A stretch of DNA of 63,405 nt, counting the filler, from Reclinomonas americana ATCC 50394 (taxonomy: Eukaryota), in the NCBI GenBank assembly GCA_048213135.1. It is 12 parts of 12 records of this genome, joined end to end, with 100 filler letters (N's around TTAATTAATTAA, not from the genome) between each part and the next. Parts side by side here need not be neighbours in the genome. Positions count along the whole stretch, not along the records: positions 39,699 to 49,025 come from AFZH01019083.1; 11 more parts are not named here. One strand, 5' to 3'. The position numbers and the translations under genes were made by a program. This document shows, in pieces, positions 38,234-62,634 of this stretch. Position 1 is the stretch's first letter. The number at the start of each line of letters is the position of its first letter. The notes under the pieces were generated by a model that had not been told where the DNA came from, did not search any database, and saw nothing but the letters and a program-made list of their open reading frames with translations.

Positions 38234-41200
38234 TCACTTCCTAGTCGCGCCCAACTTCAACCGAGTGCCCTTGCGAGCCGGCGCAGATGCTGACGACTGT
38301 GCCAGAGAATTCGTTGTCGTGGAGTCATCGTCGCCACCCAAATCAATCAGCTGATGCTGTGCCAAGTGATGCTGGTGCAGGTGCTGGTTGTCGGCAGCAC
38401 CACCACCGCCGCCGCTGCCACCACCACCACCCAACGAAAAGTCGGGAGCGTTGCCGAAAACAGGATCATCGCCACCATCCAGACTCGCATCAATGTCCCA
38501 TCCGTCAGTGACGTTTGACGAGGGAGCTGGTGGTGGAGACGGGGAGCGCGATCGCTGGCGCGACTGCAGAGGCTTGGCTGGTGCGCTGAAGGGGTGCGAG
38601 GCAGTTGTTGCTGCTGTTGCTGCTGCGCCTGCTGCGTGGTGGTGTGCGGCGGTCGGTGGTGGAGTGGAAGTGCCACCAAACGGAGTCTTGCGCGCTCCCA
38701 GTGCTGGTCGCTTGGCGCCGACGCGTTGCGGTGGCGGTGGATCATCATGCTCTGTGCGTGGCACTAGTCAGCACCCTAAAGGAACATCACGACTTGAAGG
38801 GCACGCAACTCTTCGACTTGAACGCATCGAATCCGCCAGGCGAATCGTCGGCATCCTCCCACCGATCGTCGTCGTCGTCGTCATCGTCGTCATCCTTCTT
38901 CTTGTGGGCCGAATGCGGCGTATTGAACAGGCGCTTCGGACCACCGGCCGCTGCTGCCGACGACGGACGTGCCGCTGGCACCAGTGACGGTCCCGGTCCA
39001 CCGCCTCCGGAAGCTGCTGCCGCAGAGTAGTGATGGTGACCGGCGGAGGCGGTGGCGGCGGCAGTGTGACCGTCTGCACCAGGCTCCGGTGTGGAGGGTG
39101 GTGAACGGTCCTCCTCAATGGTCTTTTTCACGAGCTGTGGTGGCGGCGTTGGAGGATTGAGTACACCAGCGGAAAGAATCGGAAAGTGAGAGAACACAGA
39201 CGCAAACCTTGGTGGCCACTGAGGACAGCTTGCCGGCGGCCCAGTTGAACAGCTTGGATTTGAGAGAGCCGGCGTCGGGAGTGCTGGTGCCGTCACCACT
39301 CATTGCAGTCGCTCCTCCGTCTGTGGTTGCTGAGGCGGTCGATGCGCCGACAGTGGCACTCGGTGTGCCAGGCTGCGACATGCGAGCAGCGGCGGCCGCA
39401 CGGGCATCCTCCTCGGCCTTGCGAACCATCTGGGGAGCGAGGTTGTAAGTCGTGGGCGTGCAGCTTTTTGACAGACGGAAAGACGCAACGGCTTCAGAGT
39501 TTTCCTTCAACGCCACAGTCACACCAGCCATGAGATCGAATGCCGCATTGCGCACATCCCTACGTGCGTACGCGTCAGTCAGTCGTGCGAGCTCGGCANN
39601 NNNNNNNNNNNNNNNNNNNNNNNNNNNNNNNNNNNNNNNNNNTTAATTAATTAANNNNNNNNNNNNNNNNNNNNNNNNNNNNNNNNNNNNNNNNNNNNTG
39701 GGGACGACACCATCGGGACGCAACAGTGTGGGATCCAGAGTCATGGAGGCCGCTGCCGGCATGATGCGATTGGCCAGCATGTCGGGCGAGTACACTCGTA
39801 TCGTGGCCAGCATGGCGCAGAGCGACGCCACTCGCGAGCGGAAAAAGGGATCCTTCAGAATGCGCAGGAATGCCGGAACCAACACTCGATCGCGATCCTG
39901 TGCACGGGGTGAGTGGTTGGAGTGAAGAGAAGGAACCAACAACGAAAGTACAAGGAACGGCACCTCTGGAGCCACATGATTGGCAATCTTGCCAAAGCAA
40001 ATGGTGGTGTTGGTGCGAATAGCGGGCTCCGGGTCGCCCTGCAGTCGCCAAAAGTGGCCGAGCACATTGTCGCGAATCTCCTTGGGCGACATTTTCGGCA
40101 CAATGTGAACCATGCCCTTTAGTGTCATCTGTGGGTGGAAGAATGAGTGAGGAGAAGCGCACAATGCATTATAAGATACACATCGTATGAACCTCTCGAA
40201 TACGCGGCTGTGGGTCGACGAAACCGTGCTCCAACTTTGGGAACACGGCCTTGGTCACATTCTCCGACGACAGATACGGTGCATACAAGTGCAGCGAGTC
40301 CAACAGCTGCAAGCGTACGGCGGGATCTGGACTCTCAAACAGCGTCACCAGTCCCGGCACAATCATCGACTCGTACTCTTGCTGCGACAAACGTGCGCCG
40401 ACGCGAAGCAATGCCGACAGCGCACACGACGAGCCGGCTCCGTACTGAATCGCTGTCACAATGGCCGGCAGTACGCGGTGCTTCAGGACGGCGTCGGGGA
40501 AGGCGTCGGTGTCGAGCGTGCGGAAAAACTCGTCACGGGCCTCCTGCGACTGCACCTGCACCTCGTCGAGGAACGTCACGGCGCGCACGAGTGCATTGTC
40601 AAAGTACGAGTTCTCCGCCAGGAGTGCAGCGCACGTGGGCCCGCGTGTGGCGGCCGCCGGTGCACACAACCGCTGAAAGTCGGCCTTCATGGACGCCGGC
40701 ACGGTGCGAGACGAGGCACGCAGCTGCTGCACCTCCCACGGACCGTCCACCGACGCACTCTCGTCAAACACCTGCGCCATGAGCACCGCCAGTCCCCACA
40801 GATCCACCGCGTGCACCGGTGCAGCGTCCACTTGCTGGTACTGACCGGCCTTGATCTCTGGCGGGCACTGTTGTGTTGTTGAAAGGAGATGAGCGAGTGA
40901 GTGATCGATGGAATGGAGCTAAAAGGGTGGGAGAGACGACGCAACAAAGGGCAACATGGCGGCAAACGCAGGCAGCGTGAGTGGTGGCAGTGGGGGCGCG
41001 GCTGGCGAGGCTGCACCGGGCGGGCTGAACATGCCCGAGGGCGCTGCCGACGCGCCACGCTGAGTGGTGAACTGCAAGTCGCCGAGGCGGAACTCGCCAC
41101 CACGAGTCACAAACACCGAGTAGAGACACACGTGATGGTGTGCGTACTGGCGCTCGTGGAGGAGAGAGAGGGCGCGCTGTGACGAGGAGCAGCAAGGGTA

Positions 41201-42504
41201 AGCAAAGGCATGTGAAGGAAAAAGGAGGAGGACGGTAGTCGTACCAGAATATCGTGGAGCCCCCACGCCACATGGTCGGGCTGGCCGCGGATCCCGTCGA
41301 CAACGTCGCACAGTGGCGTTACGCGTTCGGTGACCACGTAGATGACGTCGGGGAGGTCGACGCCGCTGTGAAGAGAGAAGGATGATGAGGGTGATGGGGA
41401 AGGGAGGTGATGGAAGAGAGAGAAAGAGAGAATGGAAGATATGATCCAAGAAGGAGCGACTGATCAGTGATCACCATCAAGGAGCAGAGGATACGAGGCA
41501 GGAAATACGAGGAGCTGTCAAGACAGCAACTGATCATCAGCGAGAGACGTCCACGATCAAGTGGAGGAAGCAGCGGCGATCAAAGAAGGTGACAAGACAA
41601 CGACTGAACTGTGAACACAGCACGTTTGACGAGTAAGGTGACAGACAGGCCAAAGAAGGAAACGAAGAAGCTGGCACACAGCGACTGATCATTATCAATC
41701 AGGTGGAGGATGGGGACAAGGAGCGACTGATCGCGAGAAGGTGCTGACAGGTAAAGGAAGAGGTCACAGAAGCTGTCAGGACAACGATTGATCATCAACG
41801 AGGGGGGTTAACGAGGACGCGAGAGACGCGAAGGAAGAGGGACTGATCGCGAGAAGGTGACAAGACAACGTAAAGGAAGAGGTCACAGAAGCTGTCAAGA
41901 CAACGATTGATCACAGCGAGGAGAGTGAACGCGGATGCGAGAGATGCGAAGGAAGAGGGACAATGATGACGAAGGAGCGAATGATCAGTGATCAGAGCAC
42001 CATCAACGAGGAGAGTGATCAGGAAAAGTACTCAAAATCATCCTCGTCTTCCTCCAGACACGCAACTCAATGTATCGCAACACCGTCGGCAGCCGCATCG
42101 TCTTGAGCTTCTGGAGTCCATTGAGTGCAACACGCAGTTTCTCTGTGGTGCACATGAGTGACAAGACAGAGAGAGAGAGAGTACACGGAAAATGACAAGT
42201 GGCACGCACCCGGCGATCCAGTTCGCTTATCAAACACAAAGATCGACACCTCCTCTCCCGTGCTCTATCGAACGCAGTGGTGAGCAACACCAACAACAGT
42301 GTGAGATCTATCTCCTCAGAGAGCGCACACCTTGTTGGTTCCGTGATGCAGTGTCCACACCGAGTGCGCCGAGTACACTGGCGACGCAGCATCGCCAATC
42401 GTGTAGGCAAACGCCTGTGTGAACAAAGCGTGTCACATACCACACAAACACACAAAGAGAGGCGCGATCAGGAGGCGACTTACAGTTCCTTGCGCTTGGC
42501 CCAT
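38234..42504 (-). CDS. SCYL1: SCY1-like pseudokinase with HEAT repeats (SCYL1/Cex1 family), spanning a gap
   Basis: LQKLKTMRLPTVLRYIDG, VVTERVTPL, SVFVTRGGEFRLGD, RLQGDPEPAIRTNTTICFGKIA, FLRILKDPF; C-terminus KLGATRK*. Confidence 0.9.
41725..41960. repeat. Two-copy ~116-bp tandem repeat in the 701-nt SCYL1 intron (41366-42066)
   Basis: Units begin gactgatcgcgagaaggtg at 41725 and 41841 and share taaaggaagaggtcacagaagctgtca...gacaacgattgatca. Confidence 0.85.
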
Positions 42505-43239
42505 CGCAACAACCGCAAGCACAAAAAAAACGAACTCGGACACAACGTCGCCGAGGACAAGTTGCAACAAGAAGGCTGTTCTGCTTGTGTACACGTGTAC
42601 GTGGTGGCGTACACGCTGGGAAAGGCGCATTGATGGCGCAACGTGCACCTGTGTGCGTGCAAGTGTCGGATCACGTGCACACACTTCCAAACGCGCGCGT
42701 CCAAGATTGCAGAACGTCGATTAGAACGTCTGTGGAACGCGGAGGAGTTGGGATTCCCACCAGTTCTCGCTGCGTAGAATTATTGGCTGCAGCCGACCCG
42801 GTACTCTGTCGCACAACGTCGCGATCGACATCGATATCGAATTAATCAATTGCAACGTTCAGCCGCACTCTCGCCTGGCGACCGCTTCGCCTGCAGGTGA
42901 ATGTGTGGCAGAGGAGCTACCGCGCCTGCACTCGCCATTGATTCGTGGCCGTGTCGGCGTCTTCGTGATTGCTGCTGTCGCGATCGCGATAACGATCGCA
43001 GACCAGCGACGAGGATGTAAAGAATTAAATCAACGCGTTATGATTAACGCCTCCTCACCAGCTTGCATGCGCACCTCCAACAACAGAGGCGATACTGGCG
43101 GTGTTGCTGATATATGCCTGTGGAAGACGCGCACACATATGCATGATGAATTCGCCAGGCGTTGGTTGTCCGTCCATATGATGACAGCAATGACGACGCG
43201 CACAATCGCAGCTTGGCTCTCGTAATCAAGCAACACTTT

Positions 43240-46200
43240 TCATTCGATAATCAATGTGAACTGGCCACACGCCTCGCGCAGTGCACGCATAACGTCGAGC
43301 ACCTCCTGTGCCGTCGGTCGGTCACGTCGCATACTCATGCACCGCATGCCGAGTTCAAACATTGGTTCTGCGATGCGAGGCGTCCACTCCACACCGCCAT
43401 CCACTAGCTCCATGGGACGGAGAGAGGCAGGCGACCGATCCCATGTACACAACCACTCGCGGACAGTCGTCGTGGGCTTGCTAATGACAAGCTGCACGAG
43501 GACAATGCCCACGGCGAATATATCGCTTTCCGGCTGGGGGCTCCTCGAATGCATGTGGAGTGGATCCATGTAGTCGAGTGTGCCGATAGCCGTGGTCGTC
43601 TGCGGGTCAAGAGGGAATGAGAGAGCGGCACATCGGCAACAGACGGAGGTGCAAACCTTGCCATCAACAATGGAACGCGCAATGCCAAAGTCACCGAGGC
43701 ACGGCTCCAGGCGGTGGTCCAGCAGTACGTTGGAGGGTTTAATGTCGCGGTGCACCACCTCGTTCTGTGAGGGAGCGATGAGAAGGAGTCACGTATATAG
43801 AGCAGAGTATATAGACCTTGTGCAGGAATGCCACGGCCTCGGCCAACCCGAGACCAATCTGCACACGCTGCATCACGGAGAGTGGCGTGTGACCGGCGCG
43901 CGGTGGAAGCAATAGCACGTCTTCCAGGTTGGGGACTCTGCGTGGCTCACCGTGAGAGTGATGATAACTCAGACAAGAAGAGAGTGGAACGCACTCGAGA
44001 GCCTTGTACACGAGACAGCGCGCCTTGTCGTCGCCCACGGCATAGCCGACGAGAGGGACGATGCGTCGATGGCGCAGGTGGCCGAGAGTGGCGACCTACT
44101 GTAGGGTGAGTTGCCGGAGTAATGCAGAGTACAAAAAAGTGACAGACCTCGCTTTCGAAGGATGCCAGTGTCCACGGTGCATCTGGGTCGAGCACCTTGA
44201 TGGCAACATGCATCTCGTGGAGTATGGAGATGAAGACCGCGCCCTGCCCTCCTTCGCCGACCTTGAGGCGTGGGGAGAACGAGTTGGTGGCGTGCACGAT
44301 CTCGTGCCACTCAAAGCGGCGCACTGAGGGGTCGACTGTGCGGTAGAAGGTGAGTTGTGTAGAGATACGTAGAAAGGAGATGGGGGTGGAGAGACCTTGT
44401 GCGAGGAGGAGATCTTGACGAAGTTGGGATACAAGCTGGTCACGCTCCTCAAGGCGAGTAGTGAGGTCAACCTTGTCGCGTAGAGCCACCGCCAGCTGCT
44501 GTGAGACGATCGATAGTTGACTCTCCACGTCCGAGAGCTTGGTTCCTACACGGGCACCCTCCGCTTGCAGCTGTGTGATGGCGTCATTCTTGAGTTGCAG
44601 CTGAGTGACGAGGGCGGCATACTCCGGTTGCAGTCGGGTGGCAAGCTCCAGTGTTTCGCAAAGCCGTGATCCGAGACCGTCTCTTTCGCGCTGGGTCGAA
44701 GACAGCTGGGCAGCAAGCTGGTCCCGATCGTGCTGCAACGCATCACGGCATGACTCCAGTTGGATAATCTGCCGCTGCGACTGCTGTTCCGCCGCCGCCA
44801 GTTGTCCACGAGCGGCATCAAATTGATCACGCATGGTCAGCATGTCGAGAGCAGCAGCCTCAAGATGCCGTTGGAAAGTAGCATTGTCGGCCTGCAGTTG
44901 TGCGGTAAGTTGATCGCGCTCTGATCGCTGTTGTTGCTGAGCAGTGACGAGGTCGCCCTGAGCAGTTGCGAGTTGCGTGGCGAATTCGCTCTTCTCGTAC
45001 CGGGCGGAGGCGAGCTCGTCATGAAGTCGAGAGACATCCTGCTGCGCCTTCCGTTCAATCTCCGCCAGTTGCTGACGGGCAGCAGAGAGTTCGGCGGCAG
45101 CAGCATCTCGTTGACCGCGAGAGGCGGTGCTTTCAGTCACAAGCCGTGCGGTAAGCTGATCGCGCTCTTCTCGCAGCTCCGTGGCTACTCTGGTTTGCTC
45201 GTCAATGGCCACGCGGTTGGCTTGCAGTTGCTGCTGGGCTGTGGCGAGTTGCGCAGTGAGGTCGTCATTCTCGCCACTCAGTCGAGAGAGCTGTTGCCGT
45301 GACTCCTGTTCCGCCACTTGCAGTTGATTTTGGAAGGCGGCACACCTGGCCTGAAGTTGGCTGCAATCAGCTTTCAGCAGAACCTCCTGGCGATCGGCGG
45401 TGGCAAGGTCTGCCTCTCGCTGTCGCTCCATAGCGACCAGACGCCGACGAGCGGTGGAGAGTTCGGCGACAACGGCATCATGTTGCTGACGAGTGGCGGT
45501 GTTGGCAGCCTCAAGCTCTGCAACAAGCGTCTCTTGCTGACCGGCGACGGCGCGCTCCGCCTGCAGCTGGCGCTGAGCGGTAGCGAGATCATCGCGAAGC
45601 TGCTGTGACTGCTGTTCCGCCGCCGACGACTGCTGTCGATACGTGACGCGTCGAACGTGTAGTTCTTGCTGGGCGGAGGTGAGTTCGCTGTGCAACCGAA
45701 CAGCATGCCGTTGTAATTGTTGCTCCGACCTCTCGCGAGCGGCGATGCGCTCCGCCGCCAATTGTTGTTCCATGGCAGCAGCACGTGTGGCGGACCTCGC
45801 TGACTCCTCGCGCAGGCGATCTTCGAGGTCGGCGACATGTGAATGAGCTTGAGCAACTTGTCGAAGCAGGGGATCACTGCAGACTGGCGGATAGTCAGCG
45901 AGGTGGCAGCTAATCACAGAATCGGACATGCGTAATGGCTACAAACCTCGTATCGTCCGGTCCATGCTACCACTCACAATGCGCTGACCATCGGGAGTGA
46001 CGGCGACACATCGCACCCAGTTAGTGTGCCCTTTAAGCCGTCGCATTTCTTCCCCACTCGCCAGTGACCACACACGCACTGTGTTGTCGACGTGATAGCC
46101 ACTCACAATGTGCTGACCATCAGGAGTGACGGCGACAGAACACACCCGAGAAATGTGTCCTTCGCGATCGAACCGCCGCATTTCCTCACCACTCGCCAGT

Positions 46201-46891
46201 GACCATACTCGTATCGTGCCATCCTCGCCCCCACTCACAATGCGCTGGGAGTCGGGACTGACAGCAAGAAACCACACCCTTGCAGTATGACCCGTCAACC
46301 GTCGCACTTCTTCACCACTCGCCAGTGACCACACTCGTATAGTGGCGTCCTCACTCCCACTCACAATGTACTGACCATCTGCAGTGACGGCGACGGATAC
46401 CACTGCGTCAGTGTGACCCGTCAACTGTCGCACTTCTTCACCACTCGCCAGTGTCCACACTCGTATAGTGGCGTCCCCACTCCCACTCACGATGTGCTGA
46501 CCATCGGGAGTGACGGTGACAGAGTACACCTGTTCAGTGTGTTCTTCCAACCGTCGTACTTCCTGTCCACTCGCCAGTAACCACACTCGCACTGTCATGT
46601 CCTGGCTCCCACTCACTACATGCTGGCCGTCGGGAGTGACCGCGACAGAACGCACCCAGTCAGCATGTCCATCCAACCGTCGCACTTCCTCTCTACTCGC
46701 CAGTGACCACACTCGCACTGTCAGATCCCGACTCCCACTCACTACGTGCTGGCCGTCTGGAGTGATTGCGACAGAAAGCACATAATCAGTGTGCCCCTCC
46801 AAGACCTGAGCCGCGGTCGTTAACACGGTGAGCGTCACAGCCTGTGGCAATAATGGGCCTGACAACATGACCGTACCTTCGTCTTCACCAT
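43240..46891 (-). CDS. WD40 propeller / long coiled coil / IRAK-Pelle (RLK-type) Ser/Thr kinase
   Basis: MVKTK|VLEGHTDY then seven ~42-aa WD40 repeats. A 63-nt intron (45946-45884) joins in frame to the coiled coil. Kinase motifs: RRFEWHEIVHATNSFSPRLKVGEGGQGAVF, VAIK, HRDIKPSNVLLD, LGDFGIAR, GTLDYMDP, SDIFAVGIVL. Confidence 0.85.
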
Positions 46892-47268
46892 GATCACGTG
46901 CGAGAAGTCCGACTAAATTTCCGCAAATTCGAAGCGATCGACGTCGCATGCCGACATCGATGAACCCATCCCTGTAGCTGCAAGTCGCATTGCAGATCCA
47001 GATGCAAGCACATGTACGTTATAAGCAGGGCTACGTACTGTCCCCAACGATTGTGACCACTCCGAGAATTCGAAGTCGACGTTCACAAGTGCAATTCAGC
47101 AATTCGCACACGCACACACACACGCTCTCCTCACTCGCTCCCGATCCACTCACTCACGCGGAACGCATACACACCACACAACTCGCTCGATCCACAGGGT
47201 CGACATCGAGCAGTTCTATTCTTGGCTTGTGCTTGTCCCGCACCATCACTCACTCACTCTCACACACG

Positions 47269-49025
47269 ATGGCGAGTACGTTTGGTGCCAAGCTGCTGAT
47301 TGAGCGCAAGGGCCCGGCTGCAGCGGGTGGCGTGAAGGAGTGGCGACGGTTTCAGCTGCCTCTGCACTCACTGCACGAGTTGACTCTCGAGCTGAGTCGC
47401 CTGTGTGGAGGCAAGTACGCACACACACTGAAAGAGAGAGCACAATGAGAGAGAGAGAGAGAGCATTGATGACGGCAGACAGGTACTTCGTAGACCACTC
47501 TTCGCGTGTGTGTGTGAGTGTGTCAATGTGGGGTGTTGTGTGTTTGTTTGAGAGAGAGTGCGCGCGTTTGTAATTGACTGCTGCCCCCTTTTCTTCAAGC
47601 ACACACACATGCACATTCTCCGCGCACTGCGCACGCACACACGCGACAATGACGAAAATGACATGATTGCCGAGCAGGCTTTTTTTCACAGTGAGAAAAA
47701 GCACTGAGCTCTTTTCCCCCCTTTTTGCTCTCTCACTCTGTGTCTCTCTCCTTGTACTCACATAACTTTCCATGTGATTTAGAGTCATTGCCGGCGGCCT
47801 TTGTGTTGCACTATCAGGACGATGAGGAGGATTGGATTGCGCTGACGAGTGATGAGGACATGCTGGAGTGCCAGAGTGTGCTCTCCAGTGGTCCTCTGCG
47901 GCTGCGCGTGATGGGTGAGTAGTGCGGGGGAAAGAGGGAGATCGAATTTGTTTGGGACCATGTTTTGTTGTCCTCGGTGTCGGATGCTTCTTCAACATGC
48001 CTCTGGCGCCCCCCCTGTTGTTTCTATCTTTGCATTCTTCTTTCACTTTTTCTGTTCCGCTGCTCGGTCTTGTCTCTTGAGCCTCACTCGTGTTGGCGTT
48101 GCATTCCTCCACTCTGTTTCTTTCTCTCTCCTGCTCTGTGGATCTCTCTCTCTCTCTCTCTCTCTCTCGCTCTCTCCGCCCTTCTCTATGAATCTCTCTG
48201 TTATTTCCATCCAGTGTGCATGCTTCCTCCACTCCGCTTGTCGGTCTTGTCTCGTGAACTATACTCGTGTTGGCGTGAAGGCGATGAACGCAACGTGGGG
48301 CGTCGCCAATGCACACGTATGTGCGGGCGGGGACGATGTAGAGCTGTGGGAGGAGGAGTAGGAGGAGAATAAGATGATGAAGGGGGAGGAGAAGAAGCAA
48401 GGGAGGAGGAAAAGAGGAGGAGGAGGAGGAGGAGGAAGAGGAGCAGAAGCAAGTGCATTCCTCCGCTCCTCCTTCCCCCTGTTATTTCCATCCAGTGTGC
48501 ATGCTTTCTCTGCTCTTGTATTCCGCTGCTCTGGCACCCTTGATCGTCATTCTTTCGTTCGCTCTCTGTCTCTGTCTCCCACTCTCTCCTGCTCTGTGGA
48601 GCTATCTTCCTCCCTTCCCTCCCTTCCCTCCCTTCCCTCCCTTCCCTCCCTTCTCTCTCTTCCCTCCCTTCCCTCACCTCTCCCTTCCCTCCCTTCCCTT
48701 CCCTCACTCCCCCTCTCCCTTCCAGAGGTCGACGAGGAATCCAAGAAGCCCCACTTTTCGCGCTCCGCTCTCCAGCGCGCTCTGCTGCCGCCCGCGCCGC
48801 CCGCCACCGACGGCGAGTCATCATCGTCATCGTCGTCGACGACCACGGCCACCGCGCCCACCGAGTCCGGTGATGCAGGCTCTTCGTCGGGCACTGCTGG
48901 CACGGTGGCGGCAGGCGGCCGCGATGCGTCACCCACGGAGTCGCACAAGACACGGCAGCCGGTGGTGCGCCCGGAGCCACGCGAGGAGGCACGTTATGCG
49001 TACGCGGAAGAGAGCGCATCTGCAT
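47269..49025 (+). CDS. PB1-domain protein (N-terminal part; continues into gap)
   Basis: GAKLLIE...EWRRFQL (basic Lys/Arg face) and OPCA motif LHYQDDEEDWIALTSDEDM. Confidence 0.8.
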
Positions 49026-49191
49026 NNNNNNNNNNNNNNNNNNNNNNNNNNNNNNNNNNNNNNNNNNNNTTAATTAATTAANNNNNNNNNNNNNNNNNNN
49101 NNNNNNNNNNNNNNNNNNNNNNNNNCTTTTTTCTCCGCATGTCGTCGTCGTGCAAATGTCATTTTTCACTCACCGCCGCGGGGCGTGTTAG

Positions 49192-49509: not shown

Positions 49510-50826
49510 TCACGTCAGCGTCGTGGGATTCGTCGTCGTGGTCGTCGGCTGCGTGCCCGTACCCCACGTAATCGGAACGGTGGTCGCCGTGGTGCTCTGC
49601 TGCAGGGGAGCCGTCTTCTGCGTTTCCCAGGAAACCGGAACGCTCGAGGCCGACGTGCTGCCAGTAGTGCCCGTGGTCGTCGTCGTCGTGGTTGCCGTGG
49701 TTCCGGCAATCGGCGGCACCAGCATCTTGTCGCTCGTGTGCACCACCAGCACCTGTGTGCCACAAGGTGAGAAACAGCAACTTGCTGGAGTTCGTGTTTT
49801 TTTGAATGTACCGAGCACGGCGCGTGATGCACGATGTAGTCGCACGTGGTGCTGGTGAGAGGCAAGCGATTAGTGTGGTTCGAGGAATTGACAACACGCG
49901 CAGGAACATACCCCAGCATGCGGCGCAGCTTGCCTTCGCCGCCGTACCCGATGAGCAGAATGTCGATACTCTGCGTCTCGGCCGTGCGCAGCAGTGCATC
50001 GTTGGTGGGACCGACGGCCACCTGCACGAAATGGTGAGTTCGTGACTGACACACAGCGAAAGCCACTCGGACTCGAAAACCCAACAATAGTCGACACATG
50101 AATCGACTCCTTGGTGATCGACTGGTTCGCGAGGGACTATTGGGTGTGAGTTGAGAGTTTACGACAGAAATGATTGGCACAGTGGCAGACGAAACGTTGA
50201 GCACATACACGGCGCGCTGGAGTATGCGAGCCGCGTTTTCAGTGTCTGTGGTGCACCAGTCAGCTTCATGATAACTCTTTCCCCCCTTTTCCCAAGCACA
50301 GACCTTCGGAACTCGGCTCCGGTTCGTACTGCAGGCGCCAGATTCTTTGTGAGCACATACCACCAGCGACGACGCTGTATCGCACGCACTCACCGGATTC
50401 ACCGCCACGTCGTCGAGGTGGGTGACGGGGAAGTCGACGACCGGCGAGAAGAATCGGCCGAGCGCCTTGGTCGCCCGCGTCAACACATTGCCGGCCTCGT
50501 TCACCTCCTCGCCCACCTTGACGCCGGCTTTGGTGGCCGAGCTCTGGATGTGCAGCTGCGTCGCCTTGCCAGCCGGCACCGCCGTCGCCAGAATCACAGT
50601 ATCGCCTGCAGTGTTGTATTCAGCATAATGTACACGATCGGAGACCACTCTCTTCTCACCTGCCCGCGCCACGGTGCCCGCTCGCTCCACGGCAGCCAAC
50701 GAGGCGTCCGTGCCATCAACGCATACCTGCGAGATTCCGTGAGCTCAAACAAGAGAATCATTCCACCTGCATCGCCTCCTCTCTTGCTGACGCGCGCCCC
50801 TCCCCACAACACACCATCCAACGCAT
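49510..50826 (-). CDS. Universal stress protein (UspA family) with Thr-rich tail
   Basis: MRWM|VCVDGTDASLAAVERA...IDILLIGYGGEGKLRRMLG...CDYIVHHAPCS|VLVV. Confidence 0.85.
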
Positions 50827-54670: not shown

Positions 54671-57600
54671 TCATTCGCCGTGCATCTCGGCCTCCGTGCC
54701 GTCGCTCCGGAGCTCCACCGCTCCCTCGCTCGACGGCTCACCCATTTCCTTGTCAACCGCATCCTCCTCCTCCTCCATCTCCTCATCCTCTTCGTCCACC
54801 TTTTCGCCCGCCGCCCGCCGTCTCTTCAAGTCGAGTTCCGCGGTCTGCTGCCGGCCGCGAGAGCGCGCACCGGCGAGTTCCTCGATCGCCACCCGCCGAA
54901 TAACATCAAAATCGACGTTGGTGTGCTTGCCCCAGAACTCGCACCGGCCCCACTCGGCCCACGAATGCTGCTTCGTCGCAATTCCGTGCATGATGCGGGC
55001 CACTCCGCGACCCGTGGTCACCGACGTGCTGAAGCGGAACACAAACACGCGCACGTCGCCGCGCACCACGCTCAACAGCGACGGGCTGACGTTCAGTAAG
55101 GTCGCCGCCAATGCCGGCGTTTCGCGTGCACCGAGCGGCGTCTCGTTGGTAAAGTACTCGTCCAGCAGCGGCAACACGTCTCCGCCGGCATCGTCGCCGT
55201 CGGCCGCCGCCGCCGCCGCAAGGTTCGACAGCACGTGCCACACGTGATCGACACGCGCGACTCGCGTACGGTGCACCTCGGTCAGCCGCTCGCTGACCAC
55301 ACGGTACGCCGCCTCCACATCGCCACTGCCGACATCGCTGCGGACCATTACACACAGCGCCTCGCCGGCAAACTCGAGACTGATGACGCGCTGCACGCGG
55401 AGGTCGCTGAGCTCGCGCACCACGTCAGCAGTGCTGATGCCCAGCACCTCGGCCAAGTGGCCCACATCCACATGCATGCGGTTGTTGACGGTGGTGGCCA
55501 GCGTCGCCACCGCACCCAACAGCGGGTACTTGTCGCACACGTCGGCCGTCAGCTCCTTGAACGAGTTGATCTGCGCCGTGGCACACACGCGTGGCTGCAG
55601 GCGCACTTTGGCCTCCGGCTGCGCCTCCAGCAACGACAAGGCCGTCTCCGCCACCTCCGGCTTCATATCAAACTGCCGCTCCACCGTCTCCACGTTCAAG
55701 CTGCGCTCGAACGCTGTACCCTCGTCGGCCAGCGGATCGACCTCGTCGTGCAGGCGACGAGGCGCCAACACGGCCTGCACAAANNNNNNNNNNNNNNNNN
55801 NNNNNNNNNNNNNNNNNNNNNNNNNNNTTAATTAATTAANNNNNNNNNNNNNNNNNNNNNNNNNNNNNNNNNNNNNNNNNNNNCTTGCGGATGCAAGTCT
55901 CGTCGACCGTGTCGGAGAAGGCCAGACTGCGCAGCATGTAAAAATCGTCCTTGGTGATGAAGACGTGCGCAAACGCATCCTGTCCATCGCGACCGGCGCG
56001 CCCCACCTGCACGCACGCACCCACGAGTCGGTGTGACGAATCGAGGAGCACATGACGAGACCAACGACCATCACCCACCTCCTGCACATAGCTCTCCACA
56101 CTGCGCGGCAGTCGGTGGTGCACCACAACACGCAAGTCGGGCTTGTCGAGGCCCATGCCGAACGCCACCGTCGCCACCACGATGCGCAGCGAGCCACGCA
56201 TAAAGTCGTTTTGTACACGCTCACGCCGCTTGGCATCCATGCCCGAATAGTACGCCTCGGCTTGGAAACCGGCAGAGACCAGCGCCCGCACTACGTCGTC
56301 TGCGTCCTTCTTGAACAGCACATACACAATGACACCGCCTGCGTCGCGTGGCTATGAGTGAGATGAAATGCACGGACAGGAGGAGCAGCATTCACGTCAC
56401 CTTTCAGGGCCGCAATGTTGGGACGACGCAGGAACGCGACAACCGCCGTGGTGGGATTCGAGGTTTGCGAGGCCGACAGGTGCAAGTTGGAGCGGATGAG
56501 CGGCACGCGCACCGTTCGCTGCAGCTCCAGTGCGTCGCACACACTACACATGTCGATCAGCAAAAAGGCACGACAAGATGATGAGAAGGGACAACAACAA
56601 ACCTGCGCTCCGTTTGCACGTTCGCAGTGCCCGACAGCGCCAGCACGAGTGACACGTCGAGCGCACGCAGCGCACAATGCAACCGCAGGTACGAGGGACG
56701 GAAGTTGTGCGACCACTCCGACATGCAGTGTGCCTCGTCGACGCACACAAACAGCGGCAAACCGACTTCGCTCAGTCCGCGCAGGAACGGTGCCGACAGC
56801 ATGCGCTCGGGTGACACAAACAGAATGCGGATGCCCTCCAGGCGCACGCGATCCAGCAGTTCCTTGACCTTGTTTGGCGGCTGCGTGTGCGCATGTGTGA
56901 GAAGAGAGAAGAGTGACGAGGTGCGTGGATGAGCGGCGATGCTTACCAGCCGCCCGCTGAGAGCCAGAGCCGGCAGCGTGCTCGGCAAGTGCGCCAGCTG
57001 ATCTTGCATGATGGAAATGAGCGGGCTGATGACTACTGTGAGACCCGGCAACAAGAGCGCCGGCAGCTGATAGCAGAGCGATTTGCCGCCGCCAGTCGGC
57101 AGCACCGCAAACGTCGACTCGCCACGCAGCAGGCTGCTGATAATGTCCAACTGGCCCGGTCGCCACGATTCGTGCCCAAAGTGCTTGTGCACGACCTGCA
57201 CGGCATTGGAATGAGCGACCACGAGGCTACTACAAAGACACGGAATCGTGTGCGGACCTCCAACAAGGCCGCCGAATCGGCATAGCGCTCCGACATGGAC
57301 TCGAACACCGCCTCAGTGTAGCGAAGGCTCGCGAGACCGAGAGCGGCAGCCGACTCCTCGTCCACCACCATGTCTGTGACCGCAATGGCAGCCTCCTCGC
57401 CGCCCATACTGGATGTTCCGGTCGACGCTGCCGCCACTGCGGCTGCCGACGTCGAGTTGAACAGTGTGCCCTTCTCCTGGTCGACGGCCAGTCGTGCCCG
57501 GACACCGTGCTTGCGATCGAACGATGACGACCACGAGACGGAGCGGTAGGTGCCGGAGGAGCTGCGGAAGCCACGGCGACCGCGATTCCGACCGGGAATG

Positions 57601-59456
57601 TTTAGGCGCTTGAAATTGGAGCAGCCGGTGCCGCCCACATTCGATTTCTTCTTGCTGTTGCCAGTGGTGCCCGATGCCGCCGCCGAGGCAAACTGGTGAC
57701 GTGGAAAGTGAATTGAGTGTGCAAGGAAAGAGAGCGAGAAAGAGAGAAAAGGAACAAAGTGCCGCACCACTCCACCCAAAGCACGCCGCCTCCTCAATTC
57801 GGCCAACTCCTCAATCGTCATCGGCCCACGTACTCTCTCTTCCCCGACCTTGCCTGCTGACGGCGCGAGTCGCGGTGACAACAGCGACTCCAGCTCACCA
57901 GCCTCGAGGGAGTCCACCATTTCCGCAAACGGCGACGGTCGATGCGAGGAGGCCACACTCGGCGAGAAGGCGAACCCGGGCTGCATCAGCAGCGACGGCG
58001 ACGGCGGTACCATGTACTCAGCAGCGTGTCGCGGCACTGGTCTCATGACGCTGTCTCTTGCCGCCACAAGACCACCACCCTCGTCACCGTCGTCGTCGTC
58101 GTCGTCACCATCCATCGACACCACGGCAGTTGTCGCGACGGGCAGTTGGAGTGGCGGTGGTCGTGGACGCTCCGGACGCAGCGGCAACAACTCGGGACTC
58201 GCTCCTCCATGCTCCACCATTCCATCCTCATCCTCCTCGTCTTCGTCATCAATCACCTCGGGCACCTCGACGACCGCCGGTCGCGCACTCGACGACAACG
58301 GGGCAGCGGGGAACTTGACTGGCGAGGTGAGGAAACCGACGGCGCCCTGCGACGATGACGTGGAGAAGCCGCACGACAACCTGCGTTCCAACAAGTGACG
58401 GTGAGAGTCGGCGGGTACTTGTGTGTGTGCGTGGAGTGAGCGTAACTTGGCCATCCGCGTGCCCTCCTCATCCTCACCGAACAGGAATCCAGTCGCCTGC
58501 GCCTGCGCCGTCGGTGCGCGTGCCGCAGGTGGTGGCGGTGGTGGTGGTGGTTGTGGTGGTGGTTGTGTTGGAGCACGTGCAGCCGGCGCTGAGGTCTTCG
58601 ACAACGATGACGACGAGAGCGACGCGGCGTCAAAAGTCGACTGCGGAACCCAACCGCCGGCACTCTTCTTGCCCTTGCGCTTGCGCGACTTTTGGTCCAC
58701 CAGCACGTCGGCAAACGACGAGGAGAGCGACTTGGACGAGAGAGGTGTGCCAGGTGTTGTCGGCGTCGGTGACGGTGAACCGAAAGCGGCGGCGGCGGCG
58801 GCGGCGGCCGCCGCCGTTGATGATGATGACGACGATGATAATGGTGTCGGTGGAAACATGTTGAGAAAGCCCGACAAGCCCGTGGGTGTCGCGTCACCAG
58901 TGCGCCGTCGTTTCACTTGCGAGCCGAGTGTCGACGGCGCCGAGGCCGACGACAGCGAGCGCGACGACGCGTCCACCGCATGCACCGACACGAGGAAGGA
59001 GGCGGGATTGGAGAGACCACTACCACCCACTCCGCCCACGCCACCGCGCGACAGCGAGAACGAGGAGGCGGAGGACGATAGAGAGGTGGGCGTGGTGTTG
59101 CCGAGCCGCCGCGCCTCCAACACACTGCTGCTGTCGTTGCTGTACTCGCGCTTCCTCCCGGCCAGTTGCGTCACTGCGGTCACTGTTGTCGTCGTTCCCT
59201 CTGTGCTCTTTCGCAAGTGCTCCTTTAGCTTGCGGTACCGCCGACTCACCGCCGCTGCGCGATGCCACAGTGAGTGCGCGCGCGGAGAGAGAGAGAGACA
59301 AGAGGTGTGCGAGGATGCGCAACAAATGGCGGCATTCTGACGAAAGTCATTGTTCTCCGGCATGCGACCGTGCTGCTCGCGGAACTCACGCTCCCACTGC
59401 TTGAGTGCCTTGCGCAGGTCGACCATCTCCTGCCGATGCGACATGCCGCCCTCCAT
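54671..59456 (-). CDS. RECQL4: RecQ4 helicase with Sld2-like N-terminus, spanning a gap
   Basis: N-terminal LRKALKQWEREFREQHGRMP...YRKLK. Helicase motifs LPTGGGKSLCYQ, VDEAHCMSEWSHNFRPSY, ATVAFGMGLDKPD, YVQEVGRAGRDG. Confidence 0.92.
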
Positions 59457-59492
59457 CTCTACTCTCTCACACGAGGGTTGGCAATGATTTGT

Positions 59493-59520
59493 GGCGGGAA
59501 GACAAACTCGCGCGCCAAAA
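59493..59520 (-). promoter_or_regulatory. Two E2F/DP-like sites upstream of RECQL4
   Basis: TTCCCGCC (59500-59493) and TTTTGGCGCG (59520-59511) on the minus strand, within ~65 nt of the ATG. Confidence 0.55.
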
Positions 59521-59537
59521 CACAATCTTCACCAAGC

Positions 59538-61184: not shown

Positions 61185-62634
61185 ATGGGCAACACCAAGT
61201 CCAAGCCGCGGCCGACGTTTTCGCTGCACGCGGTGGTCGAGAAGATCGGGCAGGCCAACAGCTTCTCCAGCAAGTACCACGGTTGGTGCATGCACGCGCA
61301 CATTCCTAGCTCCACTCCTGTCCACTCATTCTCGCACACTCTCACACAGTGGATGCGGTGGTGAGCGAGTACTGGACGTTTGACCTGTGGTGGCGGGAGC
61401 AGCCGAGTTGCGCACGCGCGTCTGTTTGCGCATCACGGCGCATGTGTTTGATTCTGACATCAAGAACGCTTGTGTAACACAGTGGGTCTCTTCCCGGTGG
61501 AGCGTGCCGCCGTGTCGGCAGACGACGATCCCGCTGTTCCGTTTGACCCAGCACCCGAGAACCTGGTTCTGTTGCGTGTGCATCATCATCATCGTGTCAC
61601 CTAATCATGACTGCCACTGACCTGGTGACGCGGACAGGCCGACAATGGACGGCGCGCAGCTGGCCTCGTCCACGGTGCCTCGCAGTCGGTTACCTCCGTC
61701 TCCATCGCGCTCCGCTGCTGGCTCCTCGTCGACGACGGTGAGTGCGTCGGCGGCTGGCGGCAGTTCGTCGGCTCCGTCGTCGGCCACCTCGTCGCCCGCC
61801 AAGTCGGTGGTGTCGCTGGAGGTGGACGAGAGCAGCGAGTACCTGCGACGTGCGCACCGCGCGGAGCACTATGCGCAGCGGGCGTCGACGGTGATGTACA
61901 GCGGCGATGCGTCGTCGCTTCCGTCCTCGGCGGCACCGACTGCAGCAGCTGGTGGTGGTGGAGGACCTTCTGCCGCAGCGGCGGGAACAACAACAGGAGG
62001 AGCATCGGCGACGGCGACGGCTTCGGCAGCGGCACCGTCGGCATCGCCGTTCGCGGCCATTGCCTCACGAGTGACGATGACTGGTGGTGCGGCGGCGACG
62101 GCAGCACCGACGACGATACGACCGGAGCTGGAGGCGTGGCTGTTGCGACCAATTCTCGACGAGTGGCGACTGGAGTCGACGCACGAGGCACTGTCGCCGA
62201 GTCAGATGGAGCGATTGCGCATCTCGGCACGCTTGGTGCACTCGAGCGGCGCGGAGCGCGAGCGTCGTGTGCTCACCTGGAGCGCGTTTTATCGCGTGTT
62301 GGAGATGCTGCAGGCGTCGCTGTGCATGCTCAACCCGTCGGCTCCCGAGATTCAGGTCGCCGAGGCTGAGGAGTGTTGCATCTGCATGGAGCGCCGCTGC
62401 GACGTGGTGTTGGGTCCGTGCCGGCACGCTTTTTGTTACCAGTGTGCCAAGGCGTGGAGCCAGAAGCACTTTAGCACGTGTCCGCTGTGCCGCCGACGAA
62501 TGCAGGTGGACTCGCCGGATACGTGGGAAATGCCGGCGCCGCCCACCGTGGCCGAGTCATTGGTGATTGTTGCCGAGCTCATTCGCACGGGCGGTAATGC
62601 AGGAGGTGGAGGTGGTGGGGGGACGCGAAGATAA
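61185..62634 (+). CDS. RNF141: RING-HC E3 ligase, RNF141-like, with N-myristoylation motif
   Basis: MGNTKS start; EECCICMERRCDVVLGPCRHAFCYQCAKAWSQKHFSTCPLCR...DTWEMPAPP. Confidence 0.75.

What the first reader, a model, noticed from the sequence alone, without database searches (positions are those of the whole stretch)
43240..46891. WD40 / coiled-coil / IRAK-Pelle kinase: candidate protist intracellular immune receptor
Seen: two ORFs that look separate join in frame through a 63-nt intron (G|GTTTGT...CCAG|TC), giving a 7-bladed WD40 domain, a ~480-aa coiled coil and an intact kinase. The kinase has RLK/Pelle hallmarks: F.W.EI..AT..F...KVGEGG.G.V, LS..QR.QI..G.AEA.AFLH, GT..YMDP. The WD40 and coiled-coil parts are nearly intron-free, unlike neighbouring genes. 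Established: RLK/Pelle/IRAK kinases drive innate immune signalling in plants and animals, and highly similar WD40 arrays are the sensors of fungal HET-E-type NLRs. Inference: a sensor-stalk-kinase receptor without a NOD domain, assembled by domain shuffling.
Basis: partly seen in the sequence, partly recalled or inferred. Interest (0 to 1): 0.75.

Follow-up and report, generated by a model that had tools for sequence, protein, structure and literature searches.

The report
WD40, coiled-coil, plant-type RLCK kinase gene
This is most likely one eukaryotic gene for a cytoplasmic signalling kinase of the plant RLK/Pelle type, carrying an unusual WD40 propeller and a long helical stalk; nothing tested here shows that it is an immune receptor.

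Summary
On the minus strand, a 7-repeat WD40 ORF and a coiled-coil/kinase ORF join in frame through a 63-nt GT..AG intron (45946-45884). Three further short introns split the kinase, giving a 1161-aa model.

The kinase is RLK/Pelle-like. All three separately encoded kinase pieces find mainly plant RLKs/RLCKs and IRAKs in the PDB. The family's pre-kinase helix/TxxF signature is present. The five best single-domain matches among 1.84 billion representatives are kinase-U-box proteins of plant subgroup RLCK-IXb. In a tree the kinase is sister to that group plus a Chara braunii WD40-coiled-coil-kinase protein (89/87 support).

Corrections:
In-frame ATGs are at 46949 and 46868.
- The APE glutamate is Leu.

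The immune-receptor reading is not supported by the tests I could run:
- The WD40 repeats are 68% identical, below the 85% criterion for HET-E-type repeats.
- Their mean dS is 0.66, so there is no sign of recent concerted evolution.
- There is no NOD, death domain or U-box.
- Paralogues and expression could not be examined, because no genome or RNA run was available.

Verdict: a new domain variant of a known kinase kind, of moderate interest.

The parts
46950..47268 (.). Intergenic region of about 320 bp shared with a divergently oriented PB1-domain gene. It probably holds the promoter and 5' UTR and limits the gene at its 5' end.
   Evidence: The PB1 ORF 47695-47919 (+) scores Pfam E 1e-8. 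Its first ATG is read from the sequence at 47269. The WD40 frame has an upstream stop above 47018.
45947..46949 (-). Exon 1: a leader of about 50 aa followed by seven WD40 repeats. The start is ATG 46949 or the alternative in-frame ATG 46868.
   Evidence: (PF00400 E 3.6e-83, 7 stretches).
45948..46796 (-). WD40 repeat array: 7 units of 42-44 aa, the last one ending at the splice site. Mean pairwise identity is 68% for protein and 74% for DNA. Six variable columns lie at the d-a loop/start of strand a, at the b-c turn and at the end of strand d.
45884..45946 (-). Intron 1: 63 nt, GTTTGT...CTGACTATCCGCCAG, phase 1. It contains the TAG that ends the WD40 ORF (45941-45939) and an ATG at 45929.
   Evidence: Not verified by RNA.
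44148..45883 (-). Exon 2: helical rod plus the pre-kinase motif and the kinase N-lobe (G-loop, VAIK, alpha-C Glu).
44412..45872 (-). Alpha-helical, coiled-coil-like rod of about 487 aa, rich in A/Q/L/R/E, with one break at exon-2 residues 250-255.
   Evidence: no Pro in model residues 340-753; heptad score about 8.8 sd above shuffles. (AF2 helices 4-249 and 256-490, pLDDT about 64).
44274..44315 (-). RLK/Pelle N-terminal regulatory element: FEWHEIVHATNSFS, a helix plus the TxxF cap, directly before the G-loop.
   Evidence: Sequence. The signature is described in PMC10916322 (passages). PDB hits begin in this segment. It is 53% identical to PUB51 over 57 aa.
44096..44147 (-). Intron 2: 52 nt, GTCTGT..GTAG.
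   Evidence: The kinase alignment runs across the junction without a break.
43817..44095 (-). Exon 3: kinase subdomains IV-VIa, Tyr at the gatekeeper position (LVY), an insert of about 25 aa, and ...AFLHK.
43765..43816 (-). Intron 3: 52 nt, GTCTAT..ACAG.
43657..43764 (-). Exon 4: catalytic loop HRDIKPSN and DFG.
   Evidence: PF00069 E 5.7e-9.
43600..43656 (-). Intron 4: 57 nt, GTTTGC..CGCAG. It is in frame and has no stop.
43240..43599 (-). Exon 5: activation-loop threonines, GTLDYMDP (APE Glu replaced by Leu), the C-lobe, ...RRDRP.., and stop TGA 43242-43240. No U-box follows.

Best explanation
This is one protein-coding gene of an unidentified eukaryote, with five exons on the minus strand and a model of about 1161 aa.

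It encodes a soluble Ser/Thr kinase of the RLK/Pelle family. No membrane segment or signal peptide was noted, but none was searched for. The nearest known subgroup is plant RLCK-IXb (PUB-VI), which is built as USP, long helix, kinase, U-box. Here the helix-kinase core is kept, a 7-bladed WD40 propeller stands in place of USP, and there is no U-box.

Proposed working, all inferred:
1. The variable top face of the propeller binds a partner protein or peptide.
2. The helical rod of about 490 aa holds two or more chains together, or folds back at its central break.
3. Partner binding or clustering relieves inhibition and lets the RD-type kinase domains phosphorylate each other on the TTT stretch of the activation loop.
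4. The active kinase then phosphorylates downstream targets.

Shown here: domain content, order, motifs and family affinity. Inferred: splicing, oligomerisation, activity, and the cellular process, which remains open.
For: Gene model:
- Long open frames, with canonical short introns that resemble each other and those of a neighbouring gene.
- A PB1 gene 320 bp upstream on the other strand bounds the 5' end.
- The two-gene alternative would leave only 9 nt between the stop (45939) and the next ATG (45929).

RLK/Pelle affinity:
- N-lobe piece: 36 of 36 PDB hits at E<=1 are CERK1/LYK, LecRK, BIK1, BRI1, PBL2, IRAK1 or IRAK4. Six of them are below E 0.01.
- Exon 3: 14 of 18 hits are named plant RLK/RLCKs or IRAK1. 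The four at E<0.001 are all BRI1.
- C-lobe: 10 of the top 11 rows are plant RLK/RLCKs.
- The TxxF pre-kinase element is present.

RLCK-IXb affinity:
- The best five single-domain scores (60-71 bits, against 48 or less for the rest of the 150 listed) are kinase-U-box proteins or fragments of them. They include Tarenaya PUB51, a Diphasiastrum USP-kinase-U-box and a Gonium Ank-kinase-U-box.
- Idiosyncratic motifs are shared (..LQL.T.KP....LG.RC...RR.DRP..).
- The careful tree puts the kinase on the plant-RLK side (97/96). There it is sister to RLCK-IX plus the Chara WD40-CC-kinases, with support 89/87.

Same domain order elsewhere: the Chara braunii protein P0070 has WD40, a helical linker of about 100 aa, then the kinase, three times over.

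Helix and oligomerisation by analogy: PUB33's helical domain is predicted to form a coiled-coil dimer. PUB33 self-associates in yeast two-hybrid, and its N-terminal part inhibits kinase autocatalysis (bioRxiv 10.64898/2026.02.10.704836, passages).
Against: - No RNA evidence for any splice site, and no orthologue to compare. No relative was found in two word-based protein searches, and the 24 metagenome loci share 36% identity or less wherever the match exceeds 90 residues.
- Tree support for the RLCK-IX sister position is moderate (89/87). The branch is long (1.2).
- The tree holds only the best library hits to this kinase. It has no IRAK/Pelle, RIPK, LRRK, MLK or RAF references, so 'inside RLK/Pelle' rests mainly on PDB rankings and the pre-kinase motif.
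- Best identity to any relative is only 37-38%.
- APE Glu to Leu, the insert of about 25 aa and the short activation loop could mean weak or no activity.
- Two defining RLCK-IXb/PUB-VI domains, USP and U-box, are absent.
- The Chara WD40 is only generically similar to this one (phmmer E 2.8e-13), so the two fusions may be independent.
Confidence: 0.6

Rival explanations
1. One reading: an intracellular immune receptor. The WD40 array senses a pathogen-derived ligand, the rod acts as a stalk, and the IRAK-like kinase starts a defence signal without a NOD domain.
For: - The WD40 repeats are far more alike than ordinary WD40 repeats (68% against the usual 20-30%, the latter figure recalled).
- Nearly all variation sits in six columns next to the d-a loop and the b-c turn. 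By general WD40 topology (recalled) these form the top binding face.
- The nearest solved propellers include bacterial consensus-type WD40 proteins and Apaf-1.
- Plant RLCK-IXb proteins associate with pathogen effectors and affect immunity (bioRxiv 10.64898/2026.02.10.704836, passages; PMC12803775, abstract start only).
Against: - Repeat identity is below the 85% threshold used to define highly internally conserved NLR repeats (PMC4986451).
- Mean dS of 0.66 and dN/dS of 0.21 outside the variable columns indicate old, constrained repeats, not concerted evolution. At the six variable columns dN is about equal to dS and saturated, with only 10 of 21 pairs computable.
- No NOD, TIR, death or other cell-death domain.
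- It is an RD kinase.
- No paralogue in the 63-kb window.
- Family size, polymorphism and induction are untestable here.
Confidence: 0.1
2. A structural or cytoskeletal scaffold kinase. The long rod and the propeller anchor the kinase at a centrosome, flagellar root or similar structure, where it phosphorylates local substrates.
For: - WD40 plus very long coiled coils is a common build of centrosomal and ciliary proteins (general knowledge).
- There is a weak Rootletin match on the rod (PF15035, E 0.0041, below the cut-off).
- The rod is five times longer than the helical linker of the Chara relative.
Against: - The Rootletin hit is sub-threshold and typical of any Q/A/E/L-rich coil.
- Nothing in the neighbourhood links the gene to cilia. 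The dynein heavy-chain fragment lies in another contig of a stitched scaffold.
Confidence: 0.15
3. Two separate genes: a WD40-only protein ending at TAG 45941-45939, and a coiled-coil kinase starting at ATG 45929.
For: - Both ORFs are complete on their own. An in-frame ATG lies 9 nt after the stop.
- 84 alternative in-frame joins show that joinability is cheap.
- There is no RNA proof.
Against: - A 9-nt gap leaves no room for a terminator and a promoter.
- The intron has the donor type, length and pyrimidine-rich CAG end of the gene's other introns.
- The relative in Chara has WD40 and kinase in one predicted chain.
Confidence: 0.1
4. The kinase is a pseudokinase or scaffold. The gene is real but signals by binding, not by catalysis.
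For: - APE Glu is replaced by Leu, the activation loop is unusually short, and there is an insert of about 25 aa in the C-lobe.
- The related Chara domain has HCA in place of HRD.
- Some RLCK-IXb members, and the related ZED1/ZRK group, are pseudokinases (passages).
Against: All residues usually used to call activity are present: GxGxxG, VAIK Lys, alpha-C Glu, HRD Asp, Asn and DFG Asp.
Confidence: 0.12

Closest known systems
Plant RLCK-IXb / PUB-VI kinases (e.g. Arabidopsis PUB33, PUB51): USP, long alpha-helix, RLCK kinase, U-box
   Same: - The kinase domain is the nearest in sequence: the top five single-domain hits, 30 of 57 residues (53%) identical in the N-lobe and 37-38% over the whole domain.
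- It has the same pre-kinase element.
- A long helical region lies directly N-terminal to the kinase.
- It is cytoplasmic and of the RD type.
   Different: - WD40 propeller in place of USP.
- The rod is about 490 aa, much longer.
- No U-box: the stop comes about 25 aa after the kinase, and there is no U-box match anywhere in the window.
- DFG instead of the DVG seen in the aligned relatives.
- APE Glu is lost.
Chara braunii hypothetical protein GBG83112.1 (P0070): three tandem WD40, helical linker, kinase units
   Same: Same order of WD40, helix, pre-kinase motif and kinase. The kinase falls in the same clade.
   Different: - Its WD40 is divergent, not consensus-like.
- Its linker is about 100 aa.
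- Its first kinase has HCA in place of HRD.
- It is a predicted chain of three units that may be fused gene models.
Animal IRAK/Pelle kinases
   Same: The N-terminal extension with TxxF, Tyr at the gatekeeper position (a hallmark recalled, read from the alignment) and HRDIK. IRAK1 and IRAK4 are among the PDB hits of all three pieces or of two of them.
   Different: No death domain. Plant RLKs score higher than IRAKs with every piece.
Fungal HET-E/NWD-type NLRs and Apaf-1 (NOD plus WD40 sensors)
   Same: Consensus-like WD40 propeller with variation focused on a few surface columns. Apaf-1 is a strong PDB match (E 2e-58).
   Different: - No NOD.
- Repeats are 68% identical, not 85% or more.
- dS of 0.66 speaks against ongoing repeat homogenisation.
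- The effector is a kinase joined through a rod.
Bacterial Ser/Thr kinases with WD40 (PkwA type) and cyanobacterial WD40 repeat proteins (PDB 2ymu)
   Same: The WD40 domain is closest to these among solved structures (2ymu E 3e-143, PkwA 1e-92). It is 44-51% identical over all seven blades to many bacterial loci.
   Different: In PkwA the kinase is N-terminal and of the bacterial type (domain order recalled). Here the kinase is C-terminal, RLK/Pelle-like, and split by spliceosomal introns.

Membership tests
RLK/Pelle (IRAK) kinase family | Protein kinase catalytic domain of the TKL type | tested here: met
   Exon-wise Pfam results: PF07714 E 3.6e-4 (exon 3) and 2.1e-5 (exon 4); PF00069 E 5.7e-9 (exon 4) and 1.8e-5 (exon 5). 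The spliced domain matches a kinase HMM end to end (positions 2-297 of 298).
RLK/Pelle (IRAK) kinase family | N-terminal extension next to the kinase: an amphipathic helix plus the ST cap TxxF (consensus FSYEELEKAT[D/N]NF[S/D]). PMC10916322 reports it as present in RLKs, RLCKs and IRAKs and absent in Raf, Roco and MKK. | tested here: met
   FEWHEIVHATNSFS has 7 of 14 positions identical, including A-T-N-x-F-S. Only text passages of the paper were seen. Its Fig. S10 was not seen.
RLK/Pelle (IRAK) kinase family | Groups with RLK/Pelle members rather than other kinase families | tested here: inconclusive
   PDB rankings favour RLK/Pelle for all three pieces. The tree places the kinase on the plant-RLK side of a 97/96 branch against 7 non-plant rows. 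No IRAK, RIPK, LRRK, MLK or RAF references could be put in the tree.
RLCK-IXb / PUB-VI | Kinase domain clusters with RLCK-IXb | tested here: inconclusive
   The top five single-domain hits are of this group. The kinase is sister to RLCK-IX plus the Chara clade at 89/87, not inside it.
RLCK-IXb / PUB-VI | [quoted passage not shown] | tested here: met
   The architecture comes from passages of bioRxiv 10.64898/2026.02.10.704836.
RLCK-IXb / PUB-VI | N-terminal USP domain | tested here: not met
   Exon 1 is WD40 only.
RLCK-IXb / PUB-VI | C-terminal U-box (present in 9 of 20 Arabidopsis RLCK-IXb proteins) | tested here: not met
   The stop follows the kinase. tblastn with three U-box kinases finds only kinase segments in the window.
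IRAK/Pelle proper | N-terminal death domain | tested here: not met
   No Pfam match other than WD40 families in exon 1.
NLR / STAND receptors (HET-E type) | Central NOD (NACHT or NB-ARC) ATPase | tested here: not met
   No such Pfam hit in any exon or in the 131 other ORFs of 140 aa or more scanned.
NLR / STAND receptors (HET-E type) | Highly internally conserved repeats (over 85% identity over at least 100 aa) with signs of concerted evolution | tested here: not met
   Mean 68% (range 55-76%) for protein and 74% for DNA. Mean dS is 0.66. The criterion comes from PMC4986451.

The most novel reading that the evidence does not exclude
The gene may belong to an old, modular family of 'variable sensor, helical stalk, RLCK-IXb-type kinase' proteins. 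The front domain would have been swapped repeatedly: USP in land plants, ankyrin in Gonium, WD40 in Chara and here.

In this organism it would work as a NOD-less cytosolic surveillance receptor. The WD40 top face would bind a foreign or modified-self protein, and stalk-mediated clustering would fire an IRAK-like kinase.

If so, kinase-based innate sensing of the plant/animal RLK/Pelle kind would reach into a lineage that is apparently outside land plants and animals.
Probability: 0.1. Interest if true: 0.8.

Novelty: new variant of a known kind. Interest (0 to 1): 0.42.

Why it matters
RLK/Pelle kinases are the main currency of innate immune and developmental signalling in plants, and IRAKs serve animals in the same way. 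How far the family reaches, and how its modules were assembled, is still being mapped.

This locus shows the helix-plus-kinase core of the little-studied RLCK-IXb group joined to a WD40 propeller. The organism's sampled eIF4A-family protein is only 40-54% identical to the database proteins compared, although typical-length eIF4As were not searched. Together with the Chara and Gonium relatives, this points to repeated swapping of the front domain on a conserved stalk-kinase chassis. That makes 'what does the front domain sense?' a testable question.

It does not by itself show a new immune system.

Tried and rejected
- Whole genome of the window: none is held, so paralogues with other sensor domains could not be counted.
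- RNA evidence: no RNA holder was listed for 43200-47100, so no reads could be laid.
- Word-based protein searches with exon 2 (longer proteins) and with its last 139 residues (near lengths): nothing at E<=0.001.
- Third protein search, with the eIF4A-like ORF, meant to place the organism. The best identities were 40-54%. I had restricted it to proteins of 423 aa or more, which leaves out most eIF4As, so it says little. A PDB search of the same piece gave no taxonomic hint either. The organism stays unidentified.
- Metagenome scan with the C-lobe: 24 loci, matched only through the generic HRD-loop pattern. Identity was 36% or less wherever more than 90 residues matched. No orthologue was found.
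- ESM Atlas: best scores 0.82-0.88, below the 0.9 lead threshold. All were Streptophyta fragments.
- Earlier findings of this scan: nothing.
- Complex prediction of two copies of the rod (exon-2 residues 1-495): no verdict (score 0.17, mark 0.32).
- Usp ORF at 49518-50744 as a possible front half of a second RLCK-IXb-like gene: no specific similarity to PUB51. Dropped.
- Rfam and tRNA scans of the window: none found.
- Bacterial origin of the WD40 exon: bacterial loci reach 44-51% identity over seven blades. No matching eukaryote-wide comparison was possible, so this stays a lead.
- Literature searches for this architecture:
  - 'RLCK-IX' plus 'WD40' gave 2 papers, both unrelated by title.
  - TKL, WD40, kinome and IRAK gave 6 papers, 5 of them listed. 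I read passages of one, the Phytophthora infestans kinome, which lists WD40 only with a kinase of the 'OTHER' group.
  - One search was rejected for a slash in a term.
Full report
**What is in the sequence**

Two long minus-strand ORFs abut each other: 45939-47018 and 43947-45938. Reading the strand and checking coordinates by script gives a five-exon model:

| Feature | Coordinates | Notes |
|---|---|---|
| Exon 1 | 46949-45947 | |
| Intron 1 | 45946-45884 | 63 nt, GTTTGT..CCAG |
| Exon 2 | 45883-44148 | |
| Intron 2 | 44147-44096 | 52 nt |
| Exon 3 | 44095-43817 | |
| Intron 3 | 43816-43765 | 52 nt |
| Exon 4 | 43764-43657 | |
| Intron 4 | 43656-43600 | 57 nt |
| Exon 5 | 43599-43240 | ends in TGA |

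The spliced CDS is 3486 nt with no internal stop and encodes 1161 aa. The finding's upper end, ATG 46891, is out of frame with the WD40 ORF. The in-frame ATGs are at 46949 and 46868. Using 46891 would need a further 35-nt intron, shorter than any other intron seen here.

**Is intron 1 real?**

No RNA run could be listed and no orthologue was found, so splicing is inferred. In-frame joinability alone is weak evidence, because 84 GT/GC..AG pairs around the stop would also give an open joined frame. Several points single out 45946-45884:
- Its donor and size resemble the three kinase introns. Those introns are supported by uninterrupted alignment of the spliced kinase to relatives.
- GTT-type donors and introns of 65-80 nt recur in the eIF4A-family gene at 26.8-29.1 kb, mapped by homology.
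- It keeps the whole seventh WD40 repeat and restores the Val of the repeat's T-I/V-R-V pattern.
- The alternative of two genes leaves 9 nt between the stop and the next ATG.

The 5' end is bounded by a divergently oriented PB1-domain gene (Pfam E 1e-8) that starts about 320 bp upstream. A missed upstream exon carrying another domain is therefore unlikely.

**Domains**

- **WD40.** Exon 1 gives PF00400 at E 3.6e-83 with seven stretches. A single-sequence AF2 model has 26 strands in the four-per-blade pattern (pTM 0.65, pLDDT 61).
- **Helical rod.** Exon 2 begins with a region without proline over model residues 340-753. It is 65% A/Q/L/R/E. Its heptad score is 0.396 against 0.237 +/- 0.018 for shuffles. 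AF2 predicts two helices, at exon-2 residues 4-249 and 256-490 (pLDDT about 64).
- **Kinase.** The kinase is encoded by the end of exon 2 and exons 3-5. G-loop, VAIK Lys, alpha-C Glu, HRDIKPSN and DFG are present. The APE Glu is Leu, there is an insert of about 25 aa after the hinge, and the activation loop is short but carries TTT.
- **Absent domains.** No U-box, death domain, TIR or NOD was found in the gene or elsewhere in the window.

**Which kinase family?**

Each separately encoded piece was compared with all PDB sequences.
- The 100 residues ending exon 2 hit 36 sequences at E<=1. All 36 are plant RLK/RLCKs (CERK1, LYK3, LecRK, BIK1, BRI1, PBL2) or IRAK1/IRAK4. Six are below E 0.01.
- Exon 3 hit 18 sequences. 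Fourteen are named plant RLK/RLCKs or IRAK1, three are 'ScRIPK'/hypothetical entries I cannot place, and one is a phage tail protein. The four below E 0.001 are all BRI1.
- The C-lobe (exons 4-5 read through the in-frame intron) hit 391 sequences. Ten of the top 11 rows are plant RLK/RLCKs. Further down, NEK2, PknB, MKK7 and IRAK4 score only slightly lower.

The segment before the G-loop, FEWHEIVHATNSFS, fits the helix-plus-TxxF element. PMC10916322 (passages) describes that element as a signature of RLKs, RLCKs and IRAKs that Raf, Roco and MKK lack.

**Which subgroup?**

I ran an exhaustive HMMER search of the C-lobe against 1.84 billion representatives. It found 20,329 proteins at E<=0.001 but only one below 1e-30, a plant protein with 15 repeated kinase fragments.

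Ranked by best single domain, five of the 150 listed hits stand apart (60-71 bits, against 48 or less for the rest):
- Tarenaya PUB51;
- a Diphasiastrum USP-kinase-U-box protein;
- a Gonium ankyrin-kinase-U-box protein;
- two unnamed fragments that end in a U-box start.

The N-lobe is 53% identical to PUB51 over 57 residues.

A quick tree of 113 kinase domains and a careful tree of 55 agree. In the careful tree the window's kinase lies on the plant-RLK side of a 97/96 branch. On the other side are seven non-plant rows: oomycete, Tritrichomonas and metagenome proteins (names). It is sister to the RLCK-IX/U-box kinases plus the three Chara braunii kinase domains, with support 89/87 and a long branch (1.2).

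Limits:
- The rows are the best hits to this very kinase, chosen by me (55 of 113).
- No IRAK or other TKL reference sequences were available to the tree.

**Relatives with other front domains**

According to passages of bioRxiv 10.64898/2026.02.10.704836, the RLCK-IXb/PUB-VI group has this build: USP, a long alpha-helical domain, RLCK kinase, U-box. In Arabidopsis 9 of 20 RLCK-IXb proteins carry the U-box. The same passages report the following for PUB33:
- its helix is predicted to dimerise as a coiled coil;
- the protein self-associates in yeast two-hybrid;
- its N-terminal part inhibits kinase autocatalysis.

The group is linked to pathogen effectors.

Only 1 of the 150 listed library hits carries WD40. 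It is Chara braunii GBG83112.1, built as WD40, a helical linker of about 100 aa, the pre-kinase motif and a kinase, three times over.

The stalk-kinase core thus appears behind USP, ankyrin or WD40 in different lineages. So do the intron at the exact end of the propeller and the lower GC3 of the WD40 and rod parts (55-58%) compared with the kinase exons (67-73%).

**Is the WD40 array HET-E-like?**

The seven repeats are 68% identical on average (range 55-76%), and 74% at the DNA level. Six alignment columns carry four or more residue types. They lie just before and within the start of strand a, on both sides of the conserved Asp of the b-c turn, and at the end of strand d. By general WD40 topology (recalled) that is the top face.

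This is the pattern of a consensus scaffold with a blade-specific binding surface. However:
- The criterion for highly internally conserved NLR repeats is over 85% identity (PMC4986451, passages). It is not met.
- Mean dS between repeats is 0.66, and dN/dS is 0.21 outside the variable columns.
- At the variable columns dN is about equal to dS and saturated, with 10 of 21 pairs computable.

The repeats are old and constrained, so there is no sign of ongoing repeat homogenisation.

The nearest solved propellers are a Nostoc WD40 protein (E 3e-143), PkwA, designed consensus propellers and Apaf-1. Many bacterial loci are 44-51% identical over all seven blades.

**How it most likely works**

Shown: a soluble-looking protein with a propeller, a very long helical rod and an RD-type RLK/Pelle kinase close to RLCK-IXb.

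Inferred: the propeller's variable face binds a partner. The rod oligomerises, or folds back at its single break, which would place the propeller beside the kinase. Binding or clustering allows trans-autophosphorylation of the TTT stretch, and the kinase then signals. The PUB33 data give the analogy for both the helix-mediated self-association and the N-terminal inhibition.

The cellular process is open. I put an immune-sensor role at about 0.1, a structural scaffold-kinase role at about 0.15, two separate genes at about 0.1, and a catalytically dead kinase at about 0.12. These overlap in part.

**Novelty**

IRAK-class kinases in protists are already described. For example, five are reported in Phytophthora infestans (PMC3019232, passages). 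RLK/Pelle-type receptors are said to dominate in plants and charophytes (PMC10463195, passages).

I found no description of a WD40-coiled-coil-RLCK-IXb architecture in the searches. These cover only the held library, and supplements of the preprint are closed.

I file the gene as a new variant of a known kind. It works like, and is related to, RLCK-IXb kinases. It fails two of that group's defining features (USP and U-box), so it is not a member in the strict sense.

**Caveats**

- The window is a stitched scaffold of 12 contigs joined by 100-base spacers. 'Neighbours' beyond 39699-49025 may not be neighbours.
- The organism is unidentified.
- All structural models were made without alignments.

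Noticed in passing
window, 11 sites (e.g. 2308-2407, 39599-39698, 49026-49125): Each N run is a 100-base spacer of 44 N, TTAATTAATTAA (stops in all six frames) and 44 N. The window is therefore a pseudo-scaffold of 12 contigs of 2-9 kb, and gene order across spacers is not reliable. The gene studied lies wholly inside contig 39699-49025.
   Followed up: yes
window 47269-47922 (+): A divergently oriented gene with a PB1 domain (Pfam E 1e-8 on ORF 47695-47919). It starts about 320 bp from the WD40 gene's first ATG.
   Followed up: partly
window 26784-29101 (-): An eIF4A-family DEAD-box gene with at least 6 introns. Donors are GTTGCG, GTTCGT, GTGAGC, GTGCGT, GTTGGT and GTTTGG. Five introns are 65-80 nt and one is about 840 nt, the last containing several similar copies of a short element. 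The protein is only 40-54% identical to the database proteins compared, but typical-length eIF4As were not searched.
   Followed up: partly
window 55923-59528 (-): ORFs with an Sld2/Drc1-like N-terminal motif (E 1.4e-6) followed by a DEAD/helicase core (E 1.2e-18). This is the build of a RecQ4-type helicase.
   Followed up: no
window 49518-50744 (-): An ORF with a universal-stress-protein domain (E 5e-10), in the contig next to the gene. USP is the front domain of plant RLCK-IXb kinases, but this ORF shows no specific similarity to PUB51, and the contig ends before any kinase could follow.
   Followed up: partly
window 15330-15818 (+): An ORF with a match to Peptidase_S74, the intramolecular chaperone of endosialidase-type tail spikes (E 1.6e-7). 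This is unexpected in a eukaryotic contig.
   Followed up: no
window 1-612 (-), 24930-25451 (-), 61621-62631 (+), 40172-40918 (-): Other recognisable pieces are a dynein heavy chain N-terminal region, a dynamin GTPase start and a C3HC4 RING finger protein. There is also an ORF with a kinase-like subdomain-IX motif plus a sub-threshold HEAT repeat, possibly SCY1-like.
   Followed up: no
P0070 (Chara braunii GBG83112.1), P0142 (Gonium pectorale KXZ51279.1): Two algal 'hypothetical proteins' carry RLCK-IXb-like kinases behind WD40 (Chara, three tandem units) or ankyrin repeats (Gonium, with a U-box). This suggests that the front domain of this kinase group has been exchanged several times.
   Followed up: partly
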